Part shown: positions 18,157-61,442 of the stretch, in pieces
Numbering within the stretch: position 1 is the stretch's first letter
How the letters are laid out: the number at the start of each line of letters is the position of its first letter
Source of the DNA: Isurus oxyrinchus
Lineage: Eukaryota
Reading direction: 5' to 3'
Length of the DNA stretch: 64,000 nucleotides
Assembly: GCA_026770705.1 (NCBI GenBank)
Contig: JANJGN010000014.1
Span: 125,364,001 to 125,428,000 of the forward strand
Notes under the pieces: model-generated
Told to the model about the DNA's origin: nothing
Database searches by the model: none
The model's input: the letters and a program-made list of their open reading frames with translations, nothing else
Translations under genes and position numbers: made by a program

Positions 18157-19824
18157 CTGAAAACAAAATGTGTAGGATTTGAACATTTTAACCAAAGGAA
18201 AGCATGCCAAGGAAAGGGTTCAGATTGTAGCATTCATATACCTCCATGCAATGCCTACATTACAGATTGAAGTGCTCAGGTTATTAACTGGTTAACAGGT
18301 TTTTAAAAAAAAAATCAGATTTCCAGGTAAAAAACAATATACCATTACACCTTACAGAACTGGTTTGCAAGGATCATTAATATTAGTCTCGCATCAACTA
18401 CATTAAAAATTCATGATCATCTTTTGTTTGGAGAAGCTGCTGATGCTTATCTCCCTTCACTCAGCAAATAAAACCAAGCAGCCCCCACAAGAATGCCCAC
18501 ACCCAAGAATGCTAATGGCTTTAAATCAGATTTGTAGCAAGATGTTTTCCAGCCTATATCATAAAACCTAACATATAAAGTATACATTTACATTAAGTTT
18601 ATGACCAGTTAACATGGAGTCCCATTTCTATACCAACAGCATACAAATAGCACAAAGTATAGCATTATATTTGACAACTGTACAATGCAGCTATGCTGTG
18701 CAGGTCCAACCCGCTCAGATGTTCTTCTCATTTCACAGAAATAGACATGTCATGACCAGCCATGTGATCATGATACATCCCTCAGCAAGTGAGGCTGGCC
18801 AAGGTAAGTCACGAGTGGCTGACAGTCAACCTCACGACTGGAGGTAATTATTCTAATCTTGTGGTCAGCCATGACATTCCACTTAAAACCGCTTCCAAGA
18901 AACCAAATTGTTTATTAATGGTCTGTTTAGTTGTGGGCCATTCTGCATTACATTTGGAATTCTAACCCTGAGTACTTAAGGAGCAGATGCTCCCGGCCTA
19001 AGATTGTCACAGCTCTCCACAATCCACGGTGTATTTCACTCAGATTAGAATGGAGCTAGAGAGCAAGTATCCAAGATCATAATGAAACTTGGCCACATTT
19101 AATGAAAAGTACATCTGGAACTGACTCTCAGATTTCCTTTAACCTTCAAGCCATCATGGCACTTAACATTGTTAACAGGATAACCATCCCTCTTGTATGA
19201 CATTTTCCCCAACTTAATTCAGTTTCTTGCACTGTTACTCAATTATTTATAGCAGCCATCTTCATCAAGTCAGAGGGGAGAAAACTTGTATACCTAGTGC
19301 ACAGGTGACCTAGTTTTCAGTTGCCATATCTGGCTTCACCACACCACACTTTGATGTGAGTCAGTCAATTAGGAGACACAGTAAGTTGCTTTAACTCATG
19401 GTGAACTCAAGGTTAAATGTTTAACTTTTAAGGGCAGACTTCACAAACTTGCTTTGTATTTCTTTGATTTAAGAAGGTTGACCTAGCCCTTTTGCGATGT
19501 TCATTCTGTACTAATTTTTACTCCAGGGTCCTGGAGGACAAGGATAGTCCTTGGTTCCCTTCCTCTGCAATCAACCACCTCTGTGGACACCTCTTTCCTG
19601 TCCTTTACAACATCCAACTCAAATGGAAACCTTCAGGAGTTCATTTCTTCTTAAGCAAGACTATAAGCATAGATGCCTCTACCACATCATCCACTTGTCT
19701 CCAACTCCATCCACCCACCCAAATACAGCCCCCTTCCTCATTCTAATGCAGAATCCCTGCCTTATTGCAGCTTCTCAGCTAATTCCTGACCTCTCCAAAC
19801 CAATTGCCCATGATGCTGCATCAA

Positions 19825-19863
19825 AACAAAAACAGAATTACCTGGAAAAACTCAGCAAGTCTG
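19825..19863 (-). mobile_element. ~40-bp Penelope 3'-end micro-insertion
   Basis: aacaaaaacagaattacctggaaaaactcagcaagtctg is nearly identical to the Penelope end and is flanked by gcatcaa (19818-19824, 19864-19870). Confidence 0.85.
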
Positions 19864-22054
19864 GCATCAATTCCATTTGTTCAGCTCAGCTTTTTAGTTG
19901 ATTTTAATGGTTCTTTTCCTCAGGCACTGCAATTCAGCCCTTCAAAAGATTGCCTCAAGATCCAGTTCCCCTGTCCATGTGCTGTACCTCTCCTTTTAGC
20001 CCAATCACTGGTCATATAATCTTCAGCTGCTCCTACTCACTCCTCCAAGACCCTTCCTAAACCTTACTATATTTCTCCTCTCCCTGAAAATCAGGTGCTT
20101 CAAAAGGTGTTCGGTCAGTTATCTTGACACATAGTCATGAACTGCCTTGGGATGTTACTTTATTTTCACAGGGACAATCAAAATGATAACTACAGTTATT
20201 GAAAGACCCAACTTTACTGAGCTCCGAGACATATTTTACCCAAAAGATAAAAATGAGAGATTGAAAGCTGTGTGAAAATAGAAATATTTACTCAGTCATG
20301 GAAGTAGTCATTTTTGAAGTTACAGAATATTTAATTAACTGATTGTTGTAAACAGAAAGAAAATATTAAAATAGTCAAAATGATAGTAATCACTTGGAGG
20401 GTAATGAATGTATAGGAATGATGGAATGATTACAAGTCTAGCAGTGTGACAAAATTGGTTTGAAGTTTGAGATGTTCCTAGCAGTCACATGATCTCATAT
20501 TTGGCCGTTGCCAGTAGTCAACCATAGATCACTCAAACTTAGTGACTAAATCACATTAATTCAGTGTGAATGAGATCATATAATTGACATGAAACACAGA
20601 AGGTCACTAGCATAATCTGCCATGCCAGCCACAATTTAGCCAATCTTTTTCTCAAGTCAATAGTTGTGGAACAAAGTCCAACAGATTCTCTGATTACTCG
20701 AGTTATAAACACTGGAGCAGAATCTTGCAGAAGCCAACTTTTCCCCCGATTCATTACAATTAACATTGATTCAAGGAGTGAGAGAATTTTTGACTTGGAT
20801 GATCAGGTGTTATTTCAAAATGTTCAAGTATATTAAATAATTCTGGCTACTGTACAGAAACAAAATCTATACTTCATTGCAGGCTCTAGAAAGAGCAAGT
20901 GAGCATAGCCAGCATTATGAAAGTCAACCTTTTAGTTACTGTTCCTCTGGGAAGGTTACAGATTAATCCACTTTATGTTTATCCTAATCATTTTCCTTTA
21001 GAAATTAAGCACACAATGCATTCCATTAAAATCAGGCTCCAACATTAAACCTTACTTAAACAGTGAGTGTCTACAGAGCAGACAGAAGTGATAAACAGCT
21101 GGTTTTTATACAGCCACAAGTGGCACATTCAATCTTTGGAATTCTTCTATCGTGATTATAATCCCAAAATAATAGGTTCATTAAATTGATAATAATGAAA
21201 CATTATATAGGAAATATTTCCACACTGTTTGAAACACTCCGGATTAGATAATCTTTGAGAAATTTCAATTCCTCAAAATTTACAATGCAGAATAGCATCA
21301 TTGTTTCCAAAGCAAAAAATATGTGGATCATGCCAAAGACCAAAAACTGGTAATCTAACCCCTCATGGGGGAAACAGATAAGTGCTTTAAAAAAAATGAA
21401 AAGTTTCAGTCTAAAACTATAGAGAATGTATTCCAAAGTCTTATATTAAGTTTTTAATCACCCGATCTAATATCTGATGTAGCTTGCTGTCTTTGTTTGA
21501 TAACAGTCCTTTTATGATGTTAAAAAGGTGCTATATAAATACAAACTGTTGTTGCTTAAAGGTACAGTGAATCTAGCCACATAAAGACCAAATGCAGGAA
21601 GTAATCTGTGCCACACTGATCATTCTCATTTATATATTCTCACTTCATGCTTGAAAAGCATCTAAAAGCACATGTTTTAAGTGGTCATTACAACCAGAGT
21701 GCACGTTTTACATCTGAGTATCCAATCCATATTTATTTTGGTGATTATCAATTGGTAAAAGATGTTTTTTTTTAAAAGACAGAACTCTCTGAATCTCCTA
21801 GTACCTGGCTAAAGATGTATAGGGCAATGACACTAGAAAATGGCTGCGCACTCAAACCAGTTTTAAACATAACTATTAAAATGCCTTCTGAATTCAAATG
21901 CAGCAATATGGAAGGTTTGCCCATGAATGACACCCCTAAAATCAATCGGTTTAAGGGTCAGTGCATTGGTTTAATATATTATCTCAGAATGCCAGCTCAA
22001 CATGAGTGAGTACAAACTATCCAAGATTCCATTTAGCTGGAAATGTTGCTTTGC

Positions 22055-22580: not shown

Positions 22581-25425
22581 GATGGTGCTGAGGGAAGGAA
22601 AGGCCTAGAGCTGGAAATACCTCTGAAATTTAAAGATTTTACAAAAATCTGAAATACCCACCAAATATATGTGAATTAACTTCACTAATTTATTATGGAG
22701 GAGGGCTATCACCAGTAAGTTATCCCTTATTTTAAAAGGCAGAGGTCATGGGTTGGAAAGCCCCTGGAAGTTGCACAAACCACCACCCCAAGTTCTCTGG
22801 ATTTTTAAAATTCTTAGGGCATGGATGTGGCTGGCTGGGCCAGCACTTTTACTGCCCATCCGTGATTGCCCTTGGTGAGCAGCCTTCTTGAACTGCAGGT
22901 GGTGCAGGTAGACCCGCAGTGCTATTAGTAGGAAGTTCCAGGATTTTGACCCAGCAACAGTGAAGGTACAGTGATACAGTTCCAAGCCAGGATGGTTTGC
23001 AACTTGGAAGGGAACTTGCAGGTGGTGATGTTCCCAAGTATTTGCTGCCCTTGTCCTCCTTGGTGGTACAGCTCACGAATTAGGATGTGCTGTCAAAGGT
23101 ACCTCGGTGATTTGCTGCAGTGTATATTGTAGATCGTACACGTTGTTACAGTGCATCGGTGGTGGAGGGAGTGGATGTTGAAGGTGGTGGATGGGTTGCC
23201 AATCAAACAGGCTGCTATGTCCTAAATGATGTCGAGCTTCCTGGGTGTTATTGGAGCTGCACTCATCCAGGCAAGTGGAGAGTGTTCCATCACACTCCTG
23301 ACTTGTACCTTGTAAATGTTAGACAGGCTTTGGGGAGTCAGGAGGCGAATTATTCGCCACAGGATTCCTAGCCTCTGACCTGCTTTTGTAGCCATGGTAT
23401 TTACACGGCTCGTCCAGTTCAGTATCTGATCAATGGTAACCCCCAGAATTTTGATAGTGGGGAATTCAGCAATGGTAATGCCATTGATTATCAAGGGGAA
23501 ATGACTGGATTCTCTCTTGCTGGAGATGGTCATTGCCTGGTACTTGTGTGGCATGAATGTTACTTGCCACTTGTCAGCCCAAGCCTGAATGTTATCCAGG
23601 TCTTGCTGAATATGGGCATGGACTGCTTCAGCATGTGAGGAATTGCAAATGGTGCAGAATATTGTACAATCAGCAGCAAACAGCCCCACTTTTGATCTTT
23701 TGATAGAGGGAAGGTCATTGATGAAGCAGCTGAAGATGGTTGCGCCTAGAGCACTACCCTGAGGAGTACCTGCAGTGATGTCCTGGGACTGAGATGATTA
23801 ACCTCCAACCACAACCATCTTGCTTTGAGCTAGGTATGACTCCAACCAGCAGAGAGTTTTCACCGCACCACCCCAATTCCCACTGACTTCAGTTTTGCTA
23901 GGTGTCCTTGATGGCACACTCGGTCAAATGTTGCCTGATGTCAAGGGCAGTCACTCTCACCTCATCTGTGAAGCTCAGCTCTTTTGCTCTTGTTTGGACT
24001 AAGACCAAATGTAACGAGGTCAGGGGTTGTGTGGCCCTGGTGGAACCCAAACTGAGCATCAGTGAGCAGGTTATTGCTATGTACCACTTGATAGTACTCT
24101 TGATGATCACTTGCAACACTTTGCTGATGGAGTGTAGACTGACGAAGTTGTAATTGGCCAGGTGGTATTTGTCCTGCTTTTTGTGGACAGGACATACTGG
24201 GCAGTTTTCCACATTGCTGGACAGGTGCCAGTGTTGTAGCTGTACTGGAACAGCTTGGCTAACAGCATAGTTAGTTCAGGAGCAGATGTCTTCAGTACTG
24301 TTGCTGGAATGTGTCAGGTCCTACAGCCTTTGCAGTGTCACGAGGAGTGGATCGGATTGGCTGAAGACTGGCATCTGTGGCGTTGGTGGGATCATCCACT
24401 CAGTACTTCTGGGTGAGGATGGCTGCACATGCTTCAGCCTTGTTTTTTGCAATGATGTGCTTGGCTCCCCCATCATTGAGGACGGGGATATTTGTGGAAC
24501 CACCTCCTCCAGTGAGTTAATTGTCCACCACCATTCATGACTGGATGTGGCAGGACTGCAGAGCTTATGGTGCTTTTGATGTTTGTCATGTAAGTAGTCC
24601 TGTGTTATAGATTTACCAGGTTGACACCTCAGTTTTAGGTATGCCTGCTGCTGCTCGTGACATGCCCTCCTGCACTCTTCATTGAACCAGGGTTGATCTG
24701 TCAGCTTGATGGTAATGGTAGGGTGGTGAATTTGCAAATTGTGGTTGCATACAATTCTGCTGCTGATGGCCCACAGCACTTCATGCATCCCCAGTTTTTA
24801 GTTGCTAGATCAGTTCGAAATCTAACCCATCAGCACAGTGGTAGTGCCACACAACACGATGGAAGGTATCCACAATGTGAAGACGGGACTTTGCCTCCAC
24901 AAGATGGTCATTCCTACCAATATTGTCATGCACAGATGCATCCTTGATAGGTGGGCTGGTGAGGACGAGGTCAAGTGGATTTCTCCCTCTTGTTAGTTCT
25001 GTCACCACCTGCCACAGACACAGGTTAGCAGCCATATCCATTTGGACTCAGCCAGCTCTGTCAGTGGTGGTGCTACCGAGCCACTCTTAGTGATGGACAT
25101 TGAAGGTCCCCACCCAGAAGACATTCTGTGCCCTAGCCATCTTCAGTACTTCTTCCAAGTAGTGTTCAACATGGAGGAGTACCGATTCATCAGCTGAAGG
25201 GGAAGACGGTAGGTGGTAAATCAGCAGGAAATTTCCTTGCCCATGACTGATCTGATGCCAGTAGAATTCATGGGGTTCAGAGTCAATGTTGAGAACTCCC
25301 AGGACAAGTCCCTCCCGACTGTATACCACTGTGCCACTGTGTCGATGGGACAGGACATACCCAGGATGGTGATGGTGGTGTCTGGTGGTGTCCGCAGGGT
25401 ACGATTCTGTAAGTATGACTGTCAG

Positions 25426-25564
25426 TCTGCTCTGAAGAATCATATGGACTCGAAACGTTAATTCTGTTTTTCTCTTCACAGATGCTGTTAGACTGCTGAG
25501 TTTTTTCAGCATTTTCTGTTTTTGTTTCAGATTTTAAGCATCCACAGTATTTTGCTTTTGTCTT
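25426..25564 (+). mobile_element. Short Penelope 3' element with canonical hammerhead core
   Basis: CTGAAGA...ggactcGAAAcgtt followed by gatgctg...gctgagtttttt...ttttgcttttgtctt. 8-bp TSD actgtcag (25418-25425, 25565-25572). Confidence 0.85.
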
Positions 25565-29815: not shown

Positions 29816-30971
29816 TTTTTTCCTTATGCTCTCTCTCATCTACATTCTTCCAAAAGTCAAGACAACAAGCATTTAGCCTGTTCTCAACAATGTTGCTCTA
29901 CAGCTAGGAGGTATAAAGGCCAGAGTATCAATTTCCCTCTGCTTTTTGTTTCTTTTTTTCCCCAGTGACAATTTATCAGGTGAGAAACTACATTGGCAGT
30001 GGTTCACGCAAGTACAATCACCTTCCACTTTTACATTTCCATGCTATACAAGGCACATTATATGAACTATTAAAAGCTTGTGAATAATGTTCAAAACAAG
30101 GATCGAATTATCTGCTTTAATAAAAATTCAGACTTAAACAAGGGTTCAGCATTAAATCCTCTTTTAAATATAGCATGGAAAGCTTAACACAATCCTATCT
30201 CAGCAGTTCTCTTACCTCTTGCAAACCTTCAGAAAATTCCTTTTTAAAATCACCTACGGCAAGTATTTTTATAAAAAAACTCATCAAGGTGAAGGATCAG
30301 TGCTGGGGAAGAGGCATGCCAGGTGAACGACAGTGCAACCACACAAAGTTCACTCAACTTTGCTCCAACGATATGGTCGAATTTTGGTTTTAGAATGTTG
30401 CTGCTGCAAGTTACTTGGAATTAAATTGAGGGTCAATGCACAAAGAACCCTTAAAGACAGAAAATATGCTTGCATCCATTAACTCTGACTGTTTTAAACT
30501 CAGGTAAAACTTAAGAGGTGAATCTGCCATCCAATCTTCCAGAAATTCTTTTGCATATTCACAAGAAACCATTTTCCCTCTGCTTTCATCTGACCTATTG
30601 CCAATATCTATTGTGTCAATTCTACTTTCTGCTTCCACTCATAACAGTCCCTCACAAAAATCTTTGCGTTGTGCGTAAGGCAAGTCAGGTTTTCCTGGAA
30701 TTTAAAATTGCAATGATCAGGAGTTACAAATCTACATGCTGAACCTTATATTGGAAGCTTGTGAAGCATGAAGCAAATAAAAGTTAAAGTCACACTAACT
30801 ATACCAGAGTTGAAAACAAAGAAAACTGCGGATGCTGGAAATCTAAAACAAAAACAGAATTACCTGGAAAAACTCAGTAGGTCTGGCAGCATCGGCGGAG
30901 GAGAAAAGAGTTGACGTTTCGAGTCCTCATGACCCTTCGACAGAACTTGATTTCGAGTCCAGGAAAGAGTT

Positions 30972-32636
30972 TCCAGGACTGTCACTGACCTCATCTCCTC
31001 TGGGGATCTCCCTCCCACAGCTTCCAACCTGATAGTCGCCCAACCTCGGACGGCCCGCTTCTATCTCCTACCCAAAATCCACAAACAGAACTGCCCTGGT
31101 AGACCGATCGTCTCAGCTTGCTCCTGCCCCACAGAACTCATTTCTCGTTATCTTGACTCCCTTCTCTCTCCCCTTGTCCAGTCCCTTCCCACCTACATCC
31201 GTGATTCCTCTGACACCTTACGTCACATCAACAATTTCCAGTTCCCTGGCTCCAACCGCTTCCTCTTCACCATGGACGTCCAATCCCTCTACACCTCCAT
31301 CCCCCACCAGGATGGTCTGAGGGCCCTTAGCTTCTTCCTCGAACAGAGGCCCGAACAATCCCCATCCACCACTACTCTCCTCCGTCTGGCTGAACTTGTT
31401 CTCACGTTGAACAATTTCTCCTTCAACTCCTCTCACTTTCTCCAAATAAAAGGTGTGGCTATGGGTACCCGCATGGGCCCCAGCTATGCCTGTCTCTTTA
31501 TGGGATATGTGGAACATTCCTTGTTGCAGTCCTACCCCGGCCCCCTTCCACAACTTTTTCTCCGGTACATCGATGATTACTTCGGTGCTGCTTCATGCTC
31601 TCGTCGGGACTTGGAAAAATTTATTAATTTTGCTTCCAATCTCCACCCCTCCATCATTTTCACGTGGTCCATCTCTGACACTTCCCTTCCCTTCCTTGAC
31701 CTTTCTGTCTCAATCTCTGGTGATAGACTGTCCACCAATATCCACTACAAACCCACCGACTCCCACAGCTACCTCGACTACAGCTCCTCACACCCCGCTT
31801 CCTGTAAGGACTCCATCCCATTCTCCCAGTTCCTTCGCCTTCGTCGCATCTGTTCCGATGATGCTACCTTCAAAAACGGTTCCTCTGACATGTCCTCCTT
31901 CTTCCTTAACCGAGGTTTTCCACCCACGGTCGTTGACAGGGCCCTCAACCGTGTCCGGCCCATCTCCCGCGCATCCGCCCTCACGCCTTCTCCTCCCTCC
32001 CAGAAACATGATAGGGTCCCCCTTGTCCTCACTTATCACCCCACCAGCCTCCGCATTCAAAGGATCATCCTCCGCCATTTCCGCCAACTCCAGCATGATG
32101 CCACCACCAAACACATCTTCCCTTCACCCCCCTTATCGGCATTCCGTAGAGATCGCTCCCTCCGGGACACCCTGGTCCACTCCTCCATCACCCCCTACTC
32201 CTCAACCCCCTCCTATGGCACCACCCCATGCCCACGCAAAAGATGTAACACCTGCCCCTTCACTTCCTCTCTCCTCACCGTCCAAGGGCCCAAACATTCC
32301 TTTCAAGTGAAGCAGCATTTCACTTGCATTTCACCCAACTTAGTCTACTGCATTCGTTGCTCCCAATGTGGTCTCCTCTACATTGGAGAGACCAAACGTA
32401 AACTGGGCGACCGCTTTGCAGAACACCTGCGGTCTGTCCGCAAGAATGACCCAAACCTCCCTGTGGCTTGCCATTTTAACACTCCACCCTGCTCTCTTGC
32501 CCACATGTCTGTCCTTGGCTTACTGCATTGTTCCAGTGAAGCCCAACGCAAACTGGAGGAACAACACCTCATCTTCCGACTAGGCACCTTACAGCCTTCC
32601 GGTCTGAATATTGAATTCAATAACTTTAGGTCGTGA
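30972..32636 (+). CDS. Penelope RT + Cys-rich linker + GIY-YIG endonuclease (N-terminally truncated, stop-free)
   Basis: Frame is open from 30972: FYLLPKIHK..GRPIVS, MDVQSLYTSIP, KGVAMGTRMGPSYA, LRYIDD, LPFLD, CPRKRCNTC, LVYCIRC..C..LYIGETKR.L..RFAEH, terminal GLN. Confidence 0.93.
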   Translation, partial: SRTVTDLISSGDLPPTASNLIVAQPRTARFYLLPKIHKQNCPGRPIVSACSCPTELISRYLDSLLSPLVQSLPTYIRDSSDTLRHINNFQFPGSNRFLFTMDVQSLYTSIPHQDGLRALSFFLEQRPEQSPSTTTLLRLAELVLTLNNFSFNSSHFLQIKGVAMGTRMGPSYACLFMGYVEHSLLQSYPGPLPQLFLRYIDDYFGAASCSRRDLEKFINFASNLHPSIIFTWSISDTSLPFLDLSVSISGDRLSTNIHYKPTDSHSYLDYSSSHPASCKDSIPFSQFLRLRRICSDDATFKNGSSDMSSFFLNRGFPPTVVDRALNRVRPISRASALTPSPPSQKHDRVPLVLTYHPTSLRIQRIILRHFRQLQHDATTKHIFPSPPLSAFRRDRSLRDTLVHSSITPYSSTPSYGTTPCPRKRCNTCPFTSSLLTVQGPKHSFQVKQHFTCISPNLVYCIRCSQCGLLYIGETKRKLGDRFAEHLRSVRKNDPNLPVACHFNTPPCSLAHMSVLGLLHCSSEAQRKLEEQHLIFRLGTLQPSGLNIEFNNFRS

Positions 32637-33040
32637 GCTCCCTCCCCCATCCCCACCCCCTTTCTGTTTCCCCCTTTTTTTCCCCCTTTTTTTTCCCTAT
32701 AAATTTTATAGATTTTTCTTTTCCCACCTATTTCCATTATTTTTAAATATTTTAAAATCCTTTATGCTCCCCCCACCCCCACTAGAGCTGTACCTTGAGT
32801 GCCCTACCATCCATTCTTAATTAGCACATTCGTTTAGATAATATCACCAACTTTAACTTTAACACCTATGTGTTCTTTGGTACCATTGTTACTGACATCT
32901 TTTGATGATCTGCTTCTATCACTGCTTGTTTGTCTACACAAGCACCTCTGTCTCTCTCTCTCTCTCCTTCCCCCCCCCCCCCCCCCCCCCACACACCTTA
33001 AACCAGCTTATATTTCAACTCTTTCCTGGACTCGAAATCA

Positions 33041-33079
33041 AGTTCTGTCGAAGGGTCATGAGGACTCGAAACGTCAACT
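33041..33079 (+). ncRNA. Minimal type I hammerhead-ribozyme-like motif with variant core
   Basis: AGTT-CTGTCGA-A-GGGTC-atgag-GACTC-GAAA-CG-TC-AACT: stem I AGTT/AACT, stem II GGGTC/GACTC, palindromic ACGT at helix III. Copies on the minus strand at 30909-30947, 37671-37709, 54018-54056, 61348-61386. Confidence 0.75.
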
Positions 33080-35367
33080 CTTTTCTCCTCCGCCGATGCT
33101 GCCAGACCTACTGAGTTTTTCCAGGTAATTCTGTTTTTGTTTCTAACTATACCAGCCTTGGGCAGACACCACAATTTTTATTTTCAGCACTGTGCTTTCC
33201 CTGACCCCCTTCTGATTTCCAATCATTTGGACAAGAGGAGGAAAAGAGGAAGATGGGTAAAGAAATCCATTAGTGTGCAATTTGTACAATGTTTTAAGGG
33301 AGTCACACCATATACAAATATAAAAATAAGTTAAAGTCTGAAATTGCTGCCCCGATTCAAAATACATCAATGACATTTTAATGCAGGAAACAAAAGATCC
33401 GATATTTTTCATGATCTAATCAAGGTCAACAGCAAAAAAAATCAATCACTGCAAAAAGCAACACATAGAAAGTCAACAAGAAATATTAGGACAATTACCA
33501 TCTCTAGTCTTCCTAGCTACTCACTCTCCTACCTGGTTCAATTATATTCCTAAAAGCTTCAACCAGCCCCATTTCTACTGCGAGTCAAGTTTCACTCATC
33601 TCCATTACATCAGGCTGCAAATCTGCTTCTCTGCATTTCTCCTGCTCTCTTTCACCGGTCCTTTATCAGTGTTCAAAAAATAAATTTTCTAAAAACCACA
33701 GGCCTACTGCTGTGTAGGTTAGTTCTGCCTTTCATTCGTAAAAAGCACATCAATATTGTTCTTCCTCAATCTTTAACCTCACTTTCTCCCTTTCATTAAT
33801 ATCCACCCTCATCTCACTATTCCATTCAAAAGCACAATCCTTTTCATTCATACAATTCCAACTGCTCATGTTCCCTCTCAGCTTCAGTCCTTCCAAAGCT
33901 GTGGCTCCGACAGTACCCATGCACATTTAATCATACACCATCTCTGCTTTCCCTCTCTCTTCTCCCTGCAGGCTCTGACTGCAGCAATATTCTTGAATCA
34001 ATTGCAAGTATACCTCAGTTCATATGCTTCCAGTTTCTTTCCTTAGCTTTGCTCTATTGCAATGTTCTTGTTTGTACTATACATAAGCTGGCTCGCTCTC
34101 TGAATTGCACACAGCAACATCCCTCCTGTTACATATCCCTTCCCCCATGGCTCGGGTGTAGCTTTTTGCTCTCTGTACTAGCAATTTCTGCCAGTACGTC
34201 CCACTCTCATTCATACATTTCCAATCTCTTCCCTCCCTAATAATCTCACTGCTGCCATCAAAACCACCCTGCCAAATACAGCCTCTACATCACTGTCCTT
34301 AATGTTGTTATAGATTTTAAAATGCTGAAATTTTCTTGTTTCCTGCTCCACACACTGACTTTACTGCGCCAGTTTCTCTGCTGTTGATATAGCCACCACA
34401 TCACCTAAGCTTTCATTCATCCATTCCAGAATTACTGCTGCACGTTCTCCACTTCGATGATGTCACTAAGATGTTCAATTATCTCATGCACTTATTTCCA
34501 GCTTTATCGAGTTGTTTTAACAAACCATTTATTTCCCACAGTCTTCTCTTCTACAACCAATGTCATAATACATCACCATTCTTTTTCATACCTACACAGT
34601 TGCTATCCAGTACATGTTACAGGTTCTATAGCACACTGCAGGTCTTTTCCAACTGCACCACCCTCCCACTATCCTGTTGGTAGCCAAGTGTCAATCAGAT
34701 ACATCATTTTTACATTTTCCTCCCCAATTTTACATCACTCATTGGAAAAATTGCATTTCAACATTACATTCCTCCCCCCATCCCCCCCCCCCCCCCCCCA
34801 ATCATAACCTGTGCTATCCTCCACTGCACCACTGCTGTGAATAGTATCAACATGATCTCATTCACTGATTTTGTATTCCAGTCTTCAATTCTCTCCCTGG
34901 ACTAACAATACTGCAACATGTTCAATACTACACACGTTCTGAACATGTGAAAAAAAAACATAAAACGCACGCGTTTTTTTTAAAGAAGATTTAATAGCAA
35001 ACCTGATCCATTATCTCCATACTGCATCATTAACACTTTACAGTGGTTGCAATGTATACCATTTCTCCCTTTAATTGCGAAGCACGTCTCGGCTGGTGAC
35101 ACAGTCAGTAACTCACTCACTCGCTTGCTCTCTCCCCACTAAGCATGCAGTTAAATTGCCAGGAAGGTTGCACTCTTGTACTCCTCCAGCAACTGCTCCC
35201 CGCCCCCACCCGGACCCGTGCAGCGCCCGCACACTACCCGCCCCCCACCCCGCCTCGAGCCCCGCGGGTTCACCGGATTGCGCCGCTCGCGCTTCTACCC
35301 CCCTCCACCCCCGGGGCCGTTGGGCTGAGGAAACCGCCACCGCCGCTTGCTCCCCCATTCCGGATAC

Positions 35368-36484: not shown

Positions 36485-37397
36485 TAGAGTCATAGAGTTA
36501 TTCAACACAGAAATGGTGCCATTGTGCCCAAACTGGCCATCAAGCACCTATCCTAATCCCATTTTCCAGCACTTGGCCCGTAGCCCTGTATGCTATGGCG
36601 TTTCACGTGCTCATCTGAATACTTCTTAAATGCCCTGCCTCTACCACCCCCTCAGGCAGTGTGTTCCATATCCCAACCACCCTCTGGGTGAAAAAAAATT
36701 TCCTTAAATCGCCTCTAAACCTCCTGCTCCTTACCTTAAATCTATGCCGCATGGTTATTGACGCCTCGGCTAAGGGAAAAGTTTCTTCCCACCTACCCTA
36801 TCTATGCCCCTCATAATTTTGTATACCTCTATCAGGTCCCCCTCAGCATTCTCTGTTCTAAGGAAAACAACCCTAGCCTATCCAGTTCCTCTTTATAGCT
36901 GAAACGTTCCAGCCCAGGCAACATCCTGGTGAATCTCCTCTGTACCCTCTCCATTGCAATCATGTCCTCCTTCTAATATGGCGACCAAAACTGCATACAG
37001 TATTCCAGCTGTGGCCTAACTAGTGTTTTATACAGCTCCAACATAACTCCCTGCTCTTACATTCTAAGATAAAAGCAAAATACTGCGAATGCTGGAAATC
37101 TGATGAGTCATGCAGATCGAAACATTAACTCTGACTTCCTCTCCACAGATACTGTCAGACCTGCTGAGTTTTTCCAGCAATTTTTGTTTTTGTTTCTGCT
37201 CTTATATTCTATTTCCCAGCCAATAAAGGCAAATATCCCATATACCTTCTTAACTATCTTATCTACATGTGCTGCTGCCTTTAGGGATCTATGGACATGT
37301 ACACCAAGGTCCCTCTGATCCTCTCTACTTCCTAGGGTCCTACCATCCATTATGCATTCCTTTATTATGTTAGTCCTCCCAAAATGCATCACCTCAC
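36485..37397 (-). mobile_element. CR1 3' portion nested in the family-A LINE
   Basis: MHFGRTN...DQRDLGVHVHRSLK..HVDKIVKK.YG..AFI and a CR1 3' tail at 36485. Confidence 0.9.
37066..37195 (+). mobile_element. Short Penelope element: inverted extreme tail + hammerhead-containing segment
   Basis: 15-bp TSD ctgctctta(c/t)attct (37051-37065, 37196-37210). aagataaaagcaaaatactgcgaatgctggaaat is inverted, followed by ctgatgagtc...gaaac...tttttgttt. Confidence 0.85.
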
Positions 37398-37606: not shown

Positions 37607-37728
37607 AAAACAAAAACAGAATTACCTGGAAAAACTCAGCAGGTCTGGCAGCATCGGCGGAGAAGAAAAGAGTTGACGTTTCGAGTCCTCATGACCCTTC
37701 GACAGAACTATACCTTTTATACCTTTTT
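37607..37728 (-). mobile_element. Short young Penelope element (hammerhead + 3' end)
   Basis: 14-bp TSD atacctgacatcat (37593-37606, 37729-37742). 37607-37709 is identical to 61284-61386. Confidence 0.92.
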
Positions 37729-53864: not shown

Positions 53865-56800
53865 TAACACTCCACAGCCCAGTTTTGTGTTGTCAGCACA
53901 CTTGGAAATATTGCACTAAGATAAAAGCAAAAAACTGCGGATGCTGGAAATCCAAAACAAAAACAAAAATACCTGGAAAAACTCAGCAGGTCTGGCAGCA
54001 TCTGCGGAGAGGAACACAGTTAACGTTTCGAGTCCTTATGACTCTTCAACAGAACTAAGGAAATATAGAAAAGAGGTGAAATATAAGCTGGTTTAAGGAG
54101 GGGGGTGGGACAGGTAGAGCCGGATAGAGGGCCAGTGGAGATAACCAAAAGATGTCACAGACAAAAGAACAAAGTGGTGTTGAAGCTGGTGATATTATCT
54201 AAGGAATGTGATAATAAAGGTACAGATAGCCCTAGTGGGGGTGGGGTGGGGGGAAGGGATCGAAATAGGCTAAAAGGCAGAGATAAAACAATGGGTGGAA
54301 ATACATTTAAAAATAATGGAAATAGGTGGGAAAAATAATCTATATAAATTATTGGAAAAAAGGGGGATCGGAAAGGGAGTGGAAATGGAGGAGAGAGTTC
54401 ATGATCTAAATTTGTTGAACTCAATATTCGGTCCGGAAGGCTGCAAAGTGCCTAGTTGAAAGATGAGGTGCTGTTCCTCCAGTTTGCGTTGAGCTTCACT
54501 GGAATAATGCAGCAGGCCAAGGACAGACATGTGGGCAAGAGAGCAGGGTGGAGTGTTGAAATGGCAAGCGACAGGGAGGTCTGGGTCATGCTTGCATTTG
54601 GTTTCCTCGTCCAAGTCATTTATATATATTGTGAAAAGCTGAGGCCTAAGAACTGATCCCTGTAGTACACCGCTAGTCACTGCCAGCCATCTGGAAAAAG
54701 ACCTATTTATTCCCACACACTGTTTCTGGTCTTTGCTAATCTTTATCTCTTCGCATAGTTATAGAAACTTTTACAGTCAGTTTTTATGTTCCCTGCAAGA
54801 ATACTCTCATACTCCATTTTCTCCTTCTTGATCAATCTTTTTGTCCACTTTTGTTTAATTCTAAACTGCTCCCAATCCTCAGGCTTGCTGCTTTTTCTGG
54901 CAATTTTATATGTCTTTTTTTTGGATCTAATACTATACTTAATTGCTTTTGTAATCCATGGTTGAGCCACCTTTCCTGTTTTATTTTTGCATCAGACAGG
55001 AATGAACAATTGTTGTAATTCATGCATACGTTCCTTAAATATCAGTCATTGCCAATCTACCATCAACCCTTTTAGTAAGGTTCTCCAATCCGTCATTGCC
55101 AACTTACGCCTCATACCCTCGTAGTTCCCTTTAGTTAGATTTAGGACCCTAATTTCGGATTCAACTTCTTCACTCTCCATCTTAATGAACAATTCTACCA
55201 TTTTATGGTCGCTCTTCCCCAAGGGACACCACACAAAAAGATTGTTAATTAATCCTTTCTCATTGCACAATACCAAGTTTAGAACAACCTGCTCTCTTAT
55301 TCGTCTAAAAAACCATCACGTACACACTCCAGAAAATCCTCCTCCACAGTATTATTGCAAGTTTGGTTTGACCAATCTATATGTAGATTAAAGTCATCCA
55401 TGATCACAGTTGTACCCTTACTGCATGCATCTCTAATTTCCTGTTTAATGCCTTCCCTTACAACTCCGGTATTGTTTGGGGGCCTTTGGGCAACACCGAC
55501 CAACATTTTCTGTCCCTTTGGGTTTCTAATCTCCACCCAGACAGATTCCACATCATGATTTTCTGAGTTAATATCCTTCCTCACTATTGCATTGATTTCT
55601 TCCTTTACTAACAGTGCTACCCCACTCCTTCCCCTATTTTTCTGTGCCTTCCTAAATATTGAATACCCCTGGATGTTTAGTTCCCATCCTTGGTCACCCT
55701 ACAGCAATGTCTCTGTAATTGCAACTATATCATAGCTGTTTATATCTATTTGCACTGTTAATTCACCTACCCTATTGCAAATGCTCCGCGCATTAAGATA
55801 CAATGCCTTAATATTTGTCTTTTTAACTTTGTTAGTCATCTTAGCTTTATTTTGCTCTATGATCCCATTTGTTTATCATCCTTGTTTTTTCTGCCTTCCA
55901 CTTTTGCTTCTTATTTTTCTGTCTTTCATTTTTATCTTTGTTTCCCCCTCCTCTGTCTCCCTGCTCAAGTTCCCATCCCCCTGTAATTCGTTTAAACCCT
56001 CCCGACAGCACTAGCAAACACCCCCCCCCCCCCCCACCCACTCCCTCGTCACCCTCAAGGACATTGGTCCGGTCCTGCCCAGATGTAACCTGTCCTGTTT
56101 GTACTGGTCGCACCTTCCCCAGCTTCCCTAGAACGGGTCCCAATGTCCCAGGAATCTGAATCTGTCCCCTCTACAATATTTCTTCAGCCCCGTATTCATC
56201 CAATATATCCTGTTATTTCTGCTCTTGCTAGCACGTGGTGCTGGTAGTAATCCTGAGATTACTACCTTTGAGGTCCTACTATTCAATTTATGTCCTAACT
56301 GCCTATATTCAGCTTGTAGGACCTCATCCCCTTTTTTCCCTATGTCGTTGGTACCAACATATACCATGTCCACTAGCTGTTCACCCTCCCCCTTCAGAAT
56401 GCCCTGCAGCCTCTCCGAGACATCCTCAACCCTGGCACCAGGGAGGCAACATACCATCTTGGAGTCTCTTTTGCGGCTGCAGAAGTGCCTGTCTGTACCC
56501 CTTACTATTGAATCCCTCACCACTATAGCCCTGCCACTCTTCTTCCTCCCCTCTTGTGCAGCAGAGCCACCCATGGTGCCATGGACTTGGCTCCTATTGC
56601 TTTCCCCTGAGAAGTCACCTCCCCCACAGTATCCAAAATGGTTTATCTGTTGGAGAGGGGACAGCCAGAGTGGACTCCTGGCACTACCTGCCTCCCTCAA
56701 CTCTGTCTGGTGGTCACCCATCCTCTTTCTGCCTCTTCAGTCTTTACCTGCAGTGTGACTACCTCACTGAACGTCCTGTCCATGACAATCTGAGCATCAC

Positions 56801-60761: not shown

Positions 60762-61442
60762 AACATATATAAGAATATATGAACTGGGAGTAGGTATTGA
60801 CCATTCTGCCCTTCGAGCCTGCTCTGCCACTCAATAAGGACAACTCCGCATTCCTACCTACCCCCAATAACCTTTCACCGCCTTGCTTATCATGAATCTA
60901 TCTAGTTCTGCCTTAAAAATATTCAAAGAATCTGCTTTCACTGTCTTTTGAGGAAGAGAGTTCCAAGAGAAAAAAGTTCTCCTCCTCTCTGTCTTAAATG
61001 GGCGACCCTTTATTTTTAAATAGTGACCCTAGTTCTAGATTCTCCCACAAGAGGAAAGATCCTTTCCACATCCACCCTGTCAAGTCCCCTTATATGTTTC
61101 AATCAAGTCGCGGCTTACTCTTCTAAAGTCCAGCAGATACACTTAGCCTGTTCAACCTTCCCTCATAAGACCCATCCCAGGTATTAGTCTAGTCCCTTTG
61201 TAGCCTCCTTATGCCCTCTTCATAACTTACTTTCCTTGCTATTTTCGTGTCATCAACAAATTTAGCAAACATACTTTCAGTTCAAAACAAAAACAGAATT
61301 ACCTGGAAAAACTCAGCAGGTCTGGCAGCATCGGCGGAGAAGAAAAGAGTTGACGTTTCGAGTCCTCATGACCCTTCGACAGAACTTGAGTTCGAGTCCA
61401 AGAAAGAGTTGAAATATAAGCTGGTTTAAGGTGTGTGGGGGT

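What the first reader, a model, noticed from the sequence alone, without database searches (positions are those of the whole stretch)
33041..33079. Hammerhead motif with a recurrent non-canonical A6U core in the youngest Penelope copies
Seen: the core reads CUGUCGA in four motif copies (33045, and minus-strand 30909-30947, 37671-37709, 61348-61386) and CUGUUGA in a second subfamily (54018-54056). The more diverged copy at 25432 has canonical CUGAAGA. Stem II is preserved with a G.U/A-U exchange (GGGTC vs GAGTC against GACTC), and stem I AGTT/AACT and the palindromic ACGT are kept. Established: PLEs carry minimal type I hammerheads thought to act as dimers, and A6 is a conserved core base. Inference: a natural core variant, or a ribozyme fold repurposed (for example as a protein-binding site) in an active lineage.
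Basis: partly seen in the sequence, partly recalled or inferred. Interest (0 to 1): 0.75.

Follow-up and report, generated by a model that had tools for sequence, protein, structure and literature searches.

The report
Shark transposon ribozyme with altered core
A very abundant Penelope-like retrotransposon of a cartilaginous fish, likely a shark, carries a hammerhead-shaped RNA motif with U instead of the conserved A at core position 6, a change predicted to slow self-cleavage, so it would offer a natural test of whether these elements need their ribozyme to cut.

Summary
Confirmed, with corrections. All 5 intact hammerhead folds in the window have U6. They are 4 insertions, not 5: 30909 and 33041 are the two ends of one Neptune-type Penelope-like element (561-codon RT/GIY-YIG remnant, 13-bp target duplication). 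U6 is inherited, not decay: two subfamilies share it, a great white shark copy reads U6, and contigs of a second organism show no other base at 3% or more (with a caveat). The published descriptor fixes A6 and finds 0 of 5. All 4 differences between the subfamilies fall at tolerated sites (P 0.01-0.03), but there is no two-sided covariation. The 'canonical' 25432 copy has a broken stem II and an ambiguous register. Best reading (0.45): a slowed, still-folded, likely protein-assisted ribozyme, tolerated because reverse transcription must read through the uncut motif. Cleavage is untested. Natural A6C is in print; I found no A6U hammerhead in 9 paper searches, but the key paper (Lunse 2016) was not held. 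The scan had no look-alike, only a different core variant in another genome. New variant of a known kind.

The parts
33041..33079 (+). Minimal type I hammerhead-shaped motif in the 3' pseudo-LTR: stem I 33041-44/33076-79, core C3-A9 33045-51 with U6 at 33048, extra A 33052, stem II 33053-57/33063-67, GAAA 33068-71, palindrome ACGT 33071-74, predicted cut after C17 33075
   Evidence: sequence; descriptor scan; pair count
30909..30947 (-). Identical U6C7 motif in the inverted 5' end of the same insertion; not an independent copy, and antisense to the 33041 motif in any one transcript
   Evidence: 126 bp 100% inverted match; one target duplication around both
30808..30971 (-). Inverted, 5'-truncated pseudo-LTR piece with the 30-40 bp tail
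   Evidence: loose ends at 30969/30971
30951..32636 (+). Stop-free 561-codon frame: 5'-truncated RT (YIDD) and C-terminal GIY-YIG endonuclease with CX4CxxC linker; the first few codons come from the inversion junction
   Evidence: full-length relatives are about 890-950 aa
32637..33142 (+). 3' UTR / pseudo-LTR ending at the main 3' end; holds the motif and a second GGACTCGAAA at 33028-33037
30795..30807 (+). Left copy of the 13-bp target-site duplication
33143..33155 (+). Right copy of the 13-bp target-site duplication
37671..37709 (-). U6C7 motif of an independent short insertion whose 5' end is the first base of stem I (14-bp target duplication)
61348..61386 (-). U6C7 motif of an independent insertion with the last part of the ORF (11-bp target duplication)
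54018..54056 (-). U6U7 motif of the second subfamily (A10.2, U17), with tail and the ORF's last 64 codons
25428..25466 (+). Decayed older copy; stem II broken, core register ambiguous
37101..37132 (+). Decayed older copy that begins at G8 behind an inverted tail; core 5' half missing

Best explanation
This is the hammerhead-shaped motif of a Neptune-type Penelope-like element whose two younger subfamilies share U at core position 6, and it is likely a slowed but still-folded ribozyme that would cut only as a dimer and with help from the element's protein. Shown: the motif, its place in the pseudo-LTR, U6 in both subfamilies, and intact G8, G12 and all other core bases. Inferred: A6 became U once, in a source element before the two subfamilies split. 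The change would lower cleavage in Mg2+ by orders of magnitude without removing the catalytic groups. Reverse transcription would start 60-100 nt downstream at the 3' end or tail and must copy through the uncut motif, so slow cutting would cost little or even help, while occasional cutting would still release units from tandem or read-through transcripts.
For: U6 in 5 of 5 intact folds, 4 independent insertions, 2 subfamilies. A named Carcharodon carcharias protein (XP_041032644.1) that reads an antisense copy has Thr at the codon whose first base pairs with position 6, which means U6. In contigs of run X15 (organism B; 4224 laid) no other letter reaches 3% at 30921-31010, while this copy's private alleles at 30878 and 30901 show at 99%. 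Between subfamilies the motif is 35/39 identical, like the ORF end (177/197), while the 20 nt upstream are 9/22 and the UTR 59%; all 4 changes are at tolerated sites, P 0.012-0.030 in simulation. Natural A6C is slow but active: under 0.1/min (PMC3088659, section read), 0.004-0.05/min in 1-3 mM Mg2+ and about 0.3/min in Mn2+ (PMC7151607, parts 1-2 read). The anole Poseidon motif cuts only with the element's protein, uncut RNA is the main template, and reverse transcription starts at the tail (PMC11167929, parts 1-2 read). Depth does not drop at the predicted cut site (19.9M to 22.3M in X1; 0.96M to 1.04M in X15), and none of the window's copies has its 5' end there.
Against: No cleavage was measured, and no A6U rate was found in print; A6C is only a proxy. 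In a full pairwise scan of a type III hammerhead, all single and double changes in the CUGA turn were of low activity except the C3-G8 swap (PMC9901934, passages). The selection signal rests on 4 substitutions in one comparison; that they miss the 14 core and near-core positions has P about 0.15 by hand arithmetic, so it does not single out catalysis. The 63 nt downstream are as conserved (55/63), so an overlapping signal could explain part of it. No two-sided covariation. The hammerhead secondary fold holds only 1-3% of the predicted monomer ensemble. No direct tandem pair lies in the window. The X1 difference table stops at 30920, and I cannot exclude that the same cut-off touched X15.
Confidence: 0.45

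Rival explanations
1. Dead relic. U6 inactivated a dispensable ribozyme in a successful source element and rode along; the remaining conservation comes from short divergence time and from an overlapping 3'-end or splice signal, not from the fold.
For: [quoted passage not shown] Catalytic mutants do not affect insertion in vitro (PMC11167929). The downstream 63 nt are equally conserved. The U6C7 subfamily also lacks the acceptor-like CAG before the ATG and has a stop after 10 codons.
Against: Conservation starts sharply at the first base of stem I (9/22 upstream, 35/39 inside), and 4 of 4 changes keep the fold, P 0.012-0.030.
Confidence: 0.25
2. Repurposed fold. The motif no longer cuts; the stem I/stem II fold is kept as a binding or positioning site for the RT/endonuclease, or as a structure that governs splicing or translation of the element's RNA.
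For: Fold-preserving changes and a sharp 5' boundary. No excess of copies ending at the cut site; 11 of the 12 shown joints in X1 start at 30937-30951, the motif's 5' arm (table 5c; 20 more not shown). In the anole element the protein-binding region includes the motif's 3' part (PMC11167929).
Against: Nothing here measures binding. The unpaired catalytic bases are all still canonical, which a purely structural role would not need. A6 is not a catalytic base, and A6C keeps activity (PMC7151607).
Confidence: 0.22
3. Compensated variant. U6 is fully tolerated in this context (extra A after A9, dimer, protein or Mn2+), and the motif cuts as well as A6 Penelope motifs.
For: A6C is barely affected in Mn2+ (PMC7151607). 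The U6C7 subfamily has the C17 cleavage triplet. With C7 and C17, A6 is predicted to form a 5-bp misfold across the core (-11.3 vs -7.3 kcal/mol), which U6 weakens.
Against: In the U6U7 subfamily U6 strengthens a misfold instead. The same CUGACGA...CGUCA combination occurs with A6 in a published Acropora Neptune motif (PMC4209133 Fig. S3). No double change rescued the CUGA turn in PMC9901934.
Confidence: 0.08

Closest known systems
Minimal type I hammerheads of metazoan Penelope-like elements (Cervera and De la Pena 2014, PMC4209133; main text parts 1-2 of 4 and the whole supplement read)
   Same: Place in the pseudo-LTR, extra base after A9, G10.1-C11.1, palindromic 15.2-16.2, no helix III, U-rich flank, inverted copies, most copies truncated.
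   Different: Position 6 is U. All 56 of 56 motifs in Fig. S3 have A6 (the descriptor fixes 'cuganga', so this is biased), none is from a cartilaginous fish, and the core variant reported is U3-A8.
Bcep176 phage hammerhead with natural A6C (Perreault 2011, PMC3088659; Naghdi 2020, PMC7151607)
   Same: A natural change at the same core position with the rest of the core intact.
   Different: C rather than U; a single phage motif rather than a high-copy retrotransposon lineage; activity was measured there and not here.
Poseidon element of Anolis carolinensis, PAc (Frangieh 2024, PMC11167929)
   Same: RT plus C-terminal GIY-YIG, pseudo-LTR hammerhead near an ATG, two 3' ends separated by a tail.
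   Different: Poseidon clade, with a motif shown to cut with protein help; this element has the Neptune/Nematis-type CX2-5CxxC linker and U6.
Naiad and most Chlamys elements (Craig 2021, PMC8557442; passages)
   Same: High-copy Penelope-like elements that lack a canonical hammerhead.
   Different: They have an N-terminal endonuclease and no descriptor-matching fold; here the fold is complete except for one base.

Membership tests
EN+ Penelope-like element | [quoted passage not shown] | tested here: met
   RVT_1 E 3.5e-08; GIY-YIG E 5.4e-04, below Pfam's cut-off but with the motif VYCIRCSQCGLLYIGET; 1851 relatives at E <= 1e-20 among 8000 scored
EN+ Penelope-like element | Pseudo-LTR, inverted 5'-truncated copy, optional 30-40 bp tail | tested here: met
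   features as in PMC8557442
Neptune clade | CX2-5CxxC linker between RT and a C-terminal endonuclease (shared with Nematis) | tested here: met
   CPRKRCNTC at residues 427-435
Neptune clade | RT groups with labelled Neptune references | not tested
   no labelled reference set was fetched; hence 'Neptune-type'
Minimal type I Penelope hammerhead | Stem I of 3-7 bp and stem II of 3-7 bp with G10.1-C11.1 | tested here: met
   4-5 bp and 5 bp in 5 of 5
Minimal type I Penelope hammerhead | GAAA, palindromic NN, U16.1, H17; extra base after A9 | tested here: met
   GAAACGTC / GAAACGTT and A33052
Minimal type I Penelope hammerhead | Core CUGANGA (A at position 6) | tested here: not met
   U6 in 5 of 5; the published descriptor finds 0
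Minimal type I Penelope hammerhead | Two-sided covariation in the stems | tested here: inconclusive
   only 2 distinct sequences; 0 of 9 pairs change on both sides, 1 on one side
Hammerhead ribozyme (catalytic) | Self-cleavage after H17, as a dimer | not testable with these tools
   no raw RNA reads were offered; contigs cannot show ends
Rfam hammerhead families | Covariance-model match | tested here: not met
   0 hits at gathering score in the window and 0 at E <= 10 in 32990-33150; whether Rfam models find A6 minimal motifs was not tested

The most novel reading that the evidence does not exclude
A shark Penelope lineage amplified to very high copy number after its hammerhead stopped cutting on its own, and selection has kept the whole fold since: a ribozyme turned into a protein-gated switch or a non-catalytic recognition structure, hidden from every search that fixes CUGANGA.
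Probability: 0.22. Interest if true: 0.7.

Novelty: new variant of a known kind. Interest (0 to 1): 0.42.

Why it matters
What the hammerhead does for Penelope-like elements is open: it cuts poorly, needs protein in the one element reconstituted, and is missing from some successful clades. A lineage that fixed a core change and still multiplied (4 insertions in this 64 kb) is a natural experiment: a 39-nt RNA and its A6 counterpart can be compared in one assay. It also shows that descriptor searches fixing A6 would miss the dominant motif in such a genome (0 of 5 found here). A specialist would find it useful rather than startling, since A6C and dispensability are both in print.

Tried and rejected
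No whole genome is held, so no count of core variants by subfamily age. Rfam: no hits. Raw-read runs X21 and X22 laid 4 and 0 reads and gave no test; the X1 difference table was cut at 30920 and says nothing about the core. Reading position 6 from proteins that translate the antisense strand: 0 hits in two word-index searches; the exhaustive search gave 4 hits, of which 1 was informative (Carcharodon), 1 stopped before the core (Heterodontus) and 2 were unrelated. No relative of the ORF in viral contigs. The one prokaryote-genome hit (L010) has T6 but no stem I and G17: chance. Rejected: U6 as per-copy decay (shared by 4 insertions); the 25432 and 37100 copies as A6 comparators; 'U6 exists to avoid a misfold' (opposite effect in the two subfamilies); an in-cis dimer of the 30909 and 33041 motifs (opposite strands). 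Literature: 9 searches. 'hammerhead + A6U' listed one twister paper (PMC11662667, listing only); CUGUCGA and CUGUUGA listed 6 and 2 papers, of which one was opened (passages, irrelevant) and the rest judged off-topic by title. Lunse, Weinberg and Breaker 2016 on Penelope hammerhead variants is not held and may already include such cores. Supplements of PMC9901934 were listed but not read; bioRxiv supplements are closed.

Full report
Observation. The sequence at 33041-33079 is AGTT CTGTCGA A GGGTC ATGAG GACTC GAAA CG T C AACT. In hammerhead numbering the core is C3 U4 G5 U6 C7 G8 A9, followed by an extra A, a 5-bp stem II closed by G10.1-C11.1, GAAA, the palindrome ACGU, C17 and a 4-bp stem I. 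The same 39 nt occur at 30909, 37671 and 61348, and a U6U7 form at 54018, all four on the minus strand. I coded the published minimal descriptor (PMC4209133, Fig. S7). With A6 fixed it finds 0 motifs in the window. With position 6 free it finds these 5, and 0 in 30 of 30 simulated windows.

The element. The motif lies in the 3' pseudo-LTR of a Penelope-like element. [quoted passage not shown] It is 5'-truncated; full-length relatives run to about 890-950 aa. The most identical relatives among the 120 listed are from whale shark, a stingray and a bamboo shark (61-69%), so the host is likely a cartilaginous fish. One 13-bp target duplication (30795-30807, 33143-33155) encloses both the 30909 and the 33041 motif, so they are one insertion with an inverted 5' end. 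The 37671 and 61348 copies have their own 14- and 11-bp duplications. The count is therefore 3 insertions of a U6C7 subfamily (98-100% alike over 100 nt) and 1 of a U6U7 subfamily (88-90%).

The older copies do not supply an A6 comparator. The 25432 copy can be read as CUGAAGA only if 3 nt were lost from stem II; in the register that keeps 4 of 5 stem II pairs, the same GAAG is G8-A9-A-G10.1 and position 6 is not A. The 37100 copy starts at G8 behind an inverted tail. That A6 is ancestral rests on outgroups. All 56 of 56 motifs in Fig. S3 of PMC4209133 have A6, though most by construction. A pattern that left positions 6 and 7 free found 9 metagenome loci of about four unrelated sequence types; 9 of 9 have A6, 5 of 9 have a stem I of 5 bp or more, and 3 of 9 have a tblastn match to relatives of this ORF in their short flanks.

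Is U6 the family state? Four independent insertions share it. Outside the window, a Carcharodon carcharias model protein that translates an antisense copy of the U6U7 type reads ...DSSTE; in that frame the first base of this codon pairs with position 6, so Thr means U6 and Ser would mean A6. Whether that is the window's own species is not known. I laid 4 of 24 listed runs on 30810-31010. In X15 (organism B, whole run, 4224 contigs laid, RNA only a guess) no other letter reaches 3% of depth at 30921-31010, which includes U6 at 30940, while this copy's private alleles at 30878 and 30901 appear at 99%. Limits: X1 (the possible source sample, 61,098 contigs) was flagged as not fully counted and its table stops at 30920; I cannot exclude that X15 was cut too; older families are clipped near 30900 and do not reach the core; X21 and X22 gave no test. 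CpG sites are 7-11% decayed in X1 and 2-3% in X15, so the family is young but not shown to be moving now.

Is the fold under selection after the change? Between the subfamilies the ORF end is 177/197 identical (13 silent, 6 replacing codons), the UTR 59%, the last 20 nt before the motif 9/22, the motif 35/39 and the next 63 nt 55/63. The 4 changes are at N7, a stem II wobble, loop II and H17. Four random substitutions keep the fold in 1.2-3.0% of simulations. This is one comparison of 4 events, there is no two-sided change, and missing the 14 core and near-core positions alone has P about 0.15 (hand arithmetic). It supports constraint on the fold, not catalysis as such.

Mechanism. G8 and G12 carry the chemistry (PMC6155905, passages) and are intact. 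Position 6 matters: a full pairwise scan found low activity for all changes in the CUGA turn except the C3-G8 swap (PMC9901934, passages). Yet a natural A6C motif cuts slowly in Mg2+ and well in Mn2+ (PMC3088659, section 8; PMC7151607, parts 1-2 of 4). I found no rate for A6U. In the anole Poseidon element the motif cuts only with the element's protein, its mutants still insert in vitro, uncut RNA is the main template, and reverse transcription starts at the tail (PMC11167929, parts 1-2 of 4). Here too the 3' end and tail lie 60-100 nt downstream of C17, so any copy that includes the motif was made from uncut RNA. Depth shows no step at the cut site and no window copy begins there. I therefore favour a slowed, dimer- and protein-dependent ribozyme that is tolerated or favoured because it spares the template (0.45). 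A like balance has been proposed for weak type I hammerheads of RNA viruses (PMC13725137, passages). Rivals: a dead relic (0.25; Naiads thrive without the motif, PMC8557442), a non-cutting fold kept for binding or processing (0.22), full compensation (0.08). Folding predictions do not decide: stem II forms with probability 0.97-0.99, but the full secondary fold is 1-3% of the monomer ensemble, and U6 weakens a misfold in one subfamily and strengthens one in the other.

Comparison and novelty. It is a Penelope-like element by the tests run, Neptune-type by its linker. The motif works like, and sits like, a minimal Penelope hammerhead but fails the defining CUGANGA test, and cleavage could not be tested; it should be called a U6 hammerhead variant, not a shown ribozyme. 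Natural core variants are known (U3-A8 in Penelope motifs, A6C in a phage). Nine searches of the held library found no A6U hammerhead and no account of shark Penelope motifs; a 2026 preprint sampled one cartilaginous fish using canonical and minimal type I models (10.64898/2026.07.22.740005; part 1 of 5 and passages). Lunse et al. 2016 was not held (title seen in a reference list) and may bear on novelty. Earlier findings of this scan had no look-alike stretch and one note on a different core variant. Verdict: real, lineage-wide, a new variant of a known kind; interest 0.42.

Noticed in passing
window 33080-33128 (+) and 53972-54017 (-): In the U6U7 and older copies a pyrimidine tract and CAG directly precede an ATG that opens MLPDLLSFS...; the U6C7 subfamily has CCG there and a TAA after 10 codons (the open TAT allele is 16% of depth in X1 and 25% in X15). 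CAG/GTAATT at 33122-33129 looks like a donor. The true ORF start is unknown.
   Followed up: partly
window 54055-54080 (-) and 33020-33042 (+): In the U6U7 copy the AG that opens stem I ends a pyrimidine tract (acceptor-like), as in D. virilis Penelope where the intron ends at helix I (PMC4209133). The U6C7 subfamily has replaced that tract. No splice joint was seen in X15.
   Followed up: partly
window 33016-33037 (+): U6C7 copies carry a second GGACTCGAA(A/C) and CAACTCTTT just upstream, repeating pieces of the motif's 3' half; predicted to compete for the 5' strand of stem II.
   Followed up: partly
window 30937-30951, 37709, 37101, about 25428: 5' truncation and inversion points gather at the motif's 5' arm, not at the cut site: 3 window copies and 11 of 12 shown joints in X1 (table 5c).
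   Followed up: partly
window 19823-19869 (-): A 47-bp fragment of the element's extreme 3' end with no motif.
   Followed up: no
window 23222-23797 (-): A separate RT fragment (RVT_1, E 2.3e-09), not matched by the Penelope proteins; probably a LINE.
   Followed up: no
window 61348, 54018, 37671, 30909 (all -): Four U6 motifs share the minus strand, so a long minus-strand transcript would carry all four; no host gene was sought.
   Followed up: no
L001-L003, L007, L008: A repeated canonical A6 minimal hammerhead with a 5-6 bp stem I and a GAAA loop in five metagenome contigs; L001 and L002 lie next to a weak match to the N-terminal part of a relative of this ORF.
   Followed up: partly
P0123, P0124: Antisense pieces of this repeat family are built into RefSeq gene models of Carcharodon and Heterodontus (an Ig-domain protein and a calpain): exonisation or gene-model error.
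   Followed up: no
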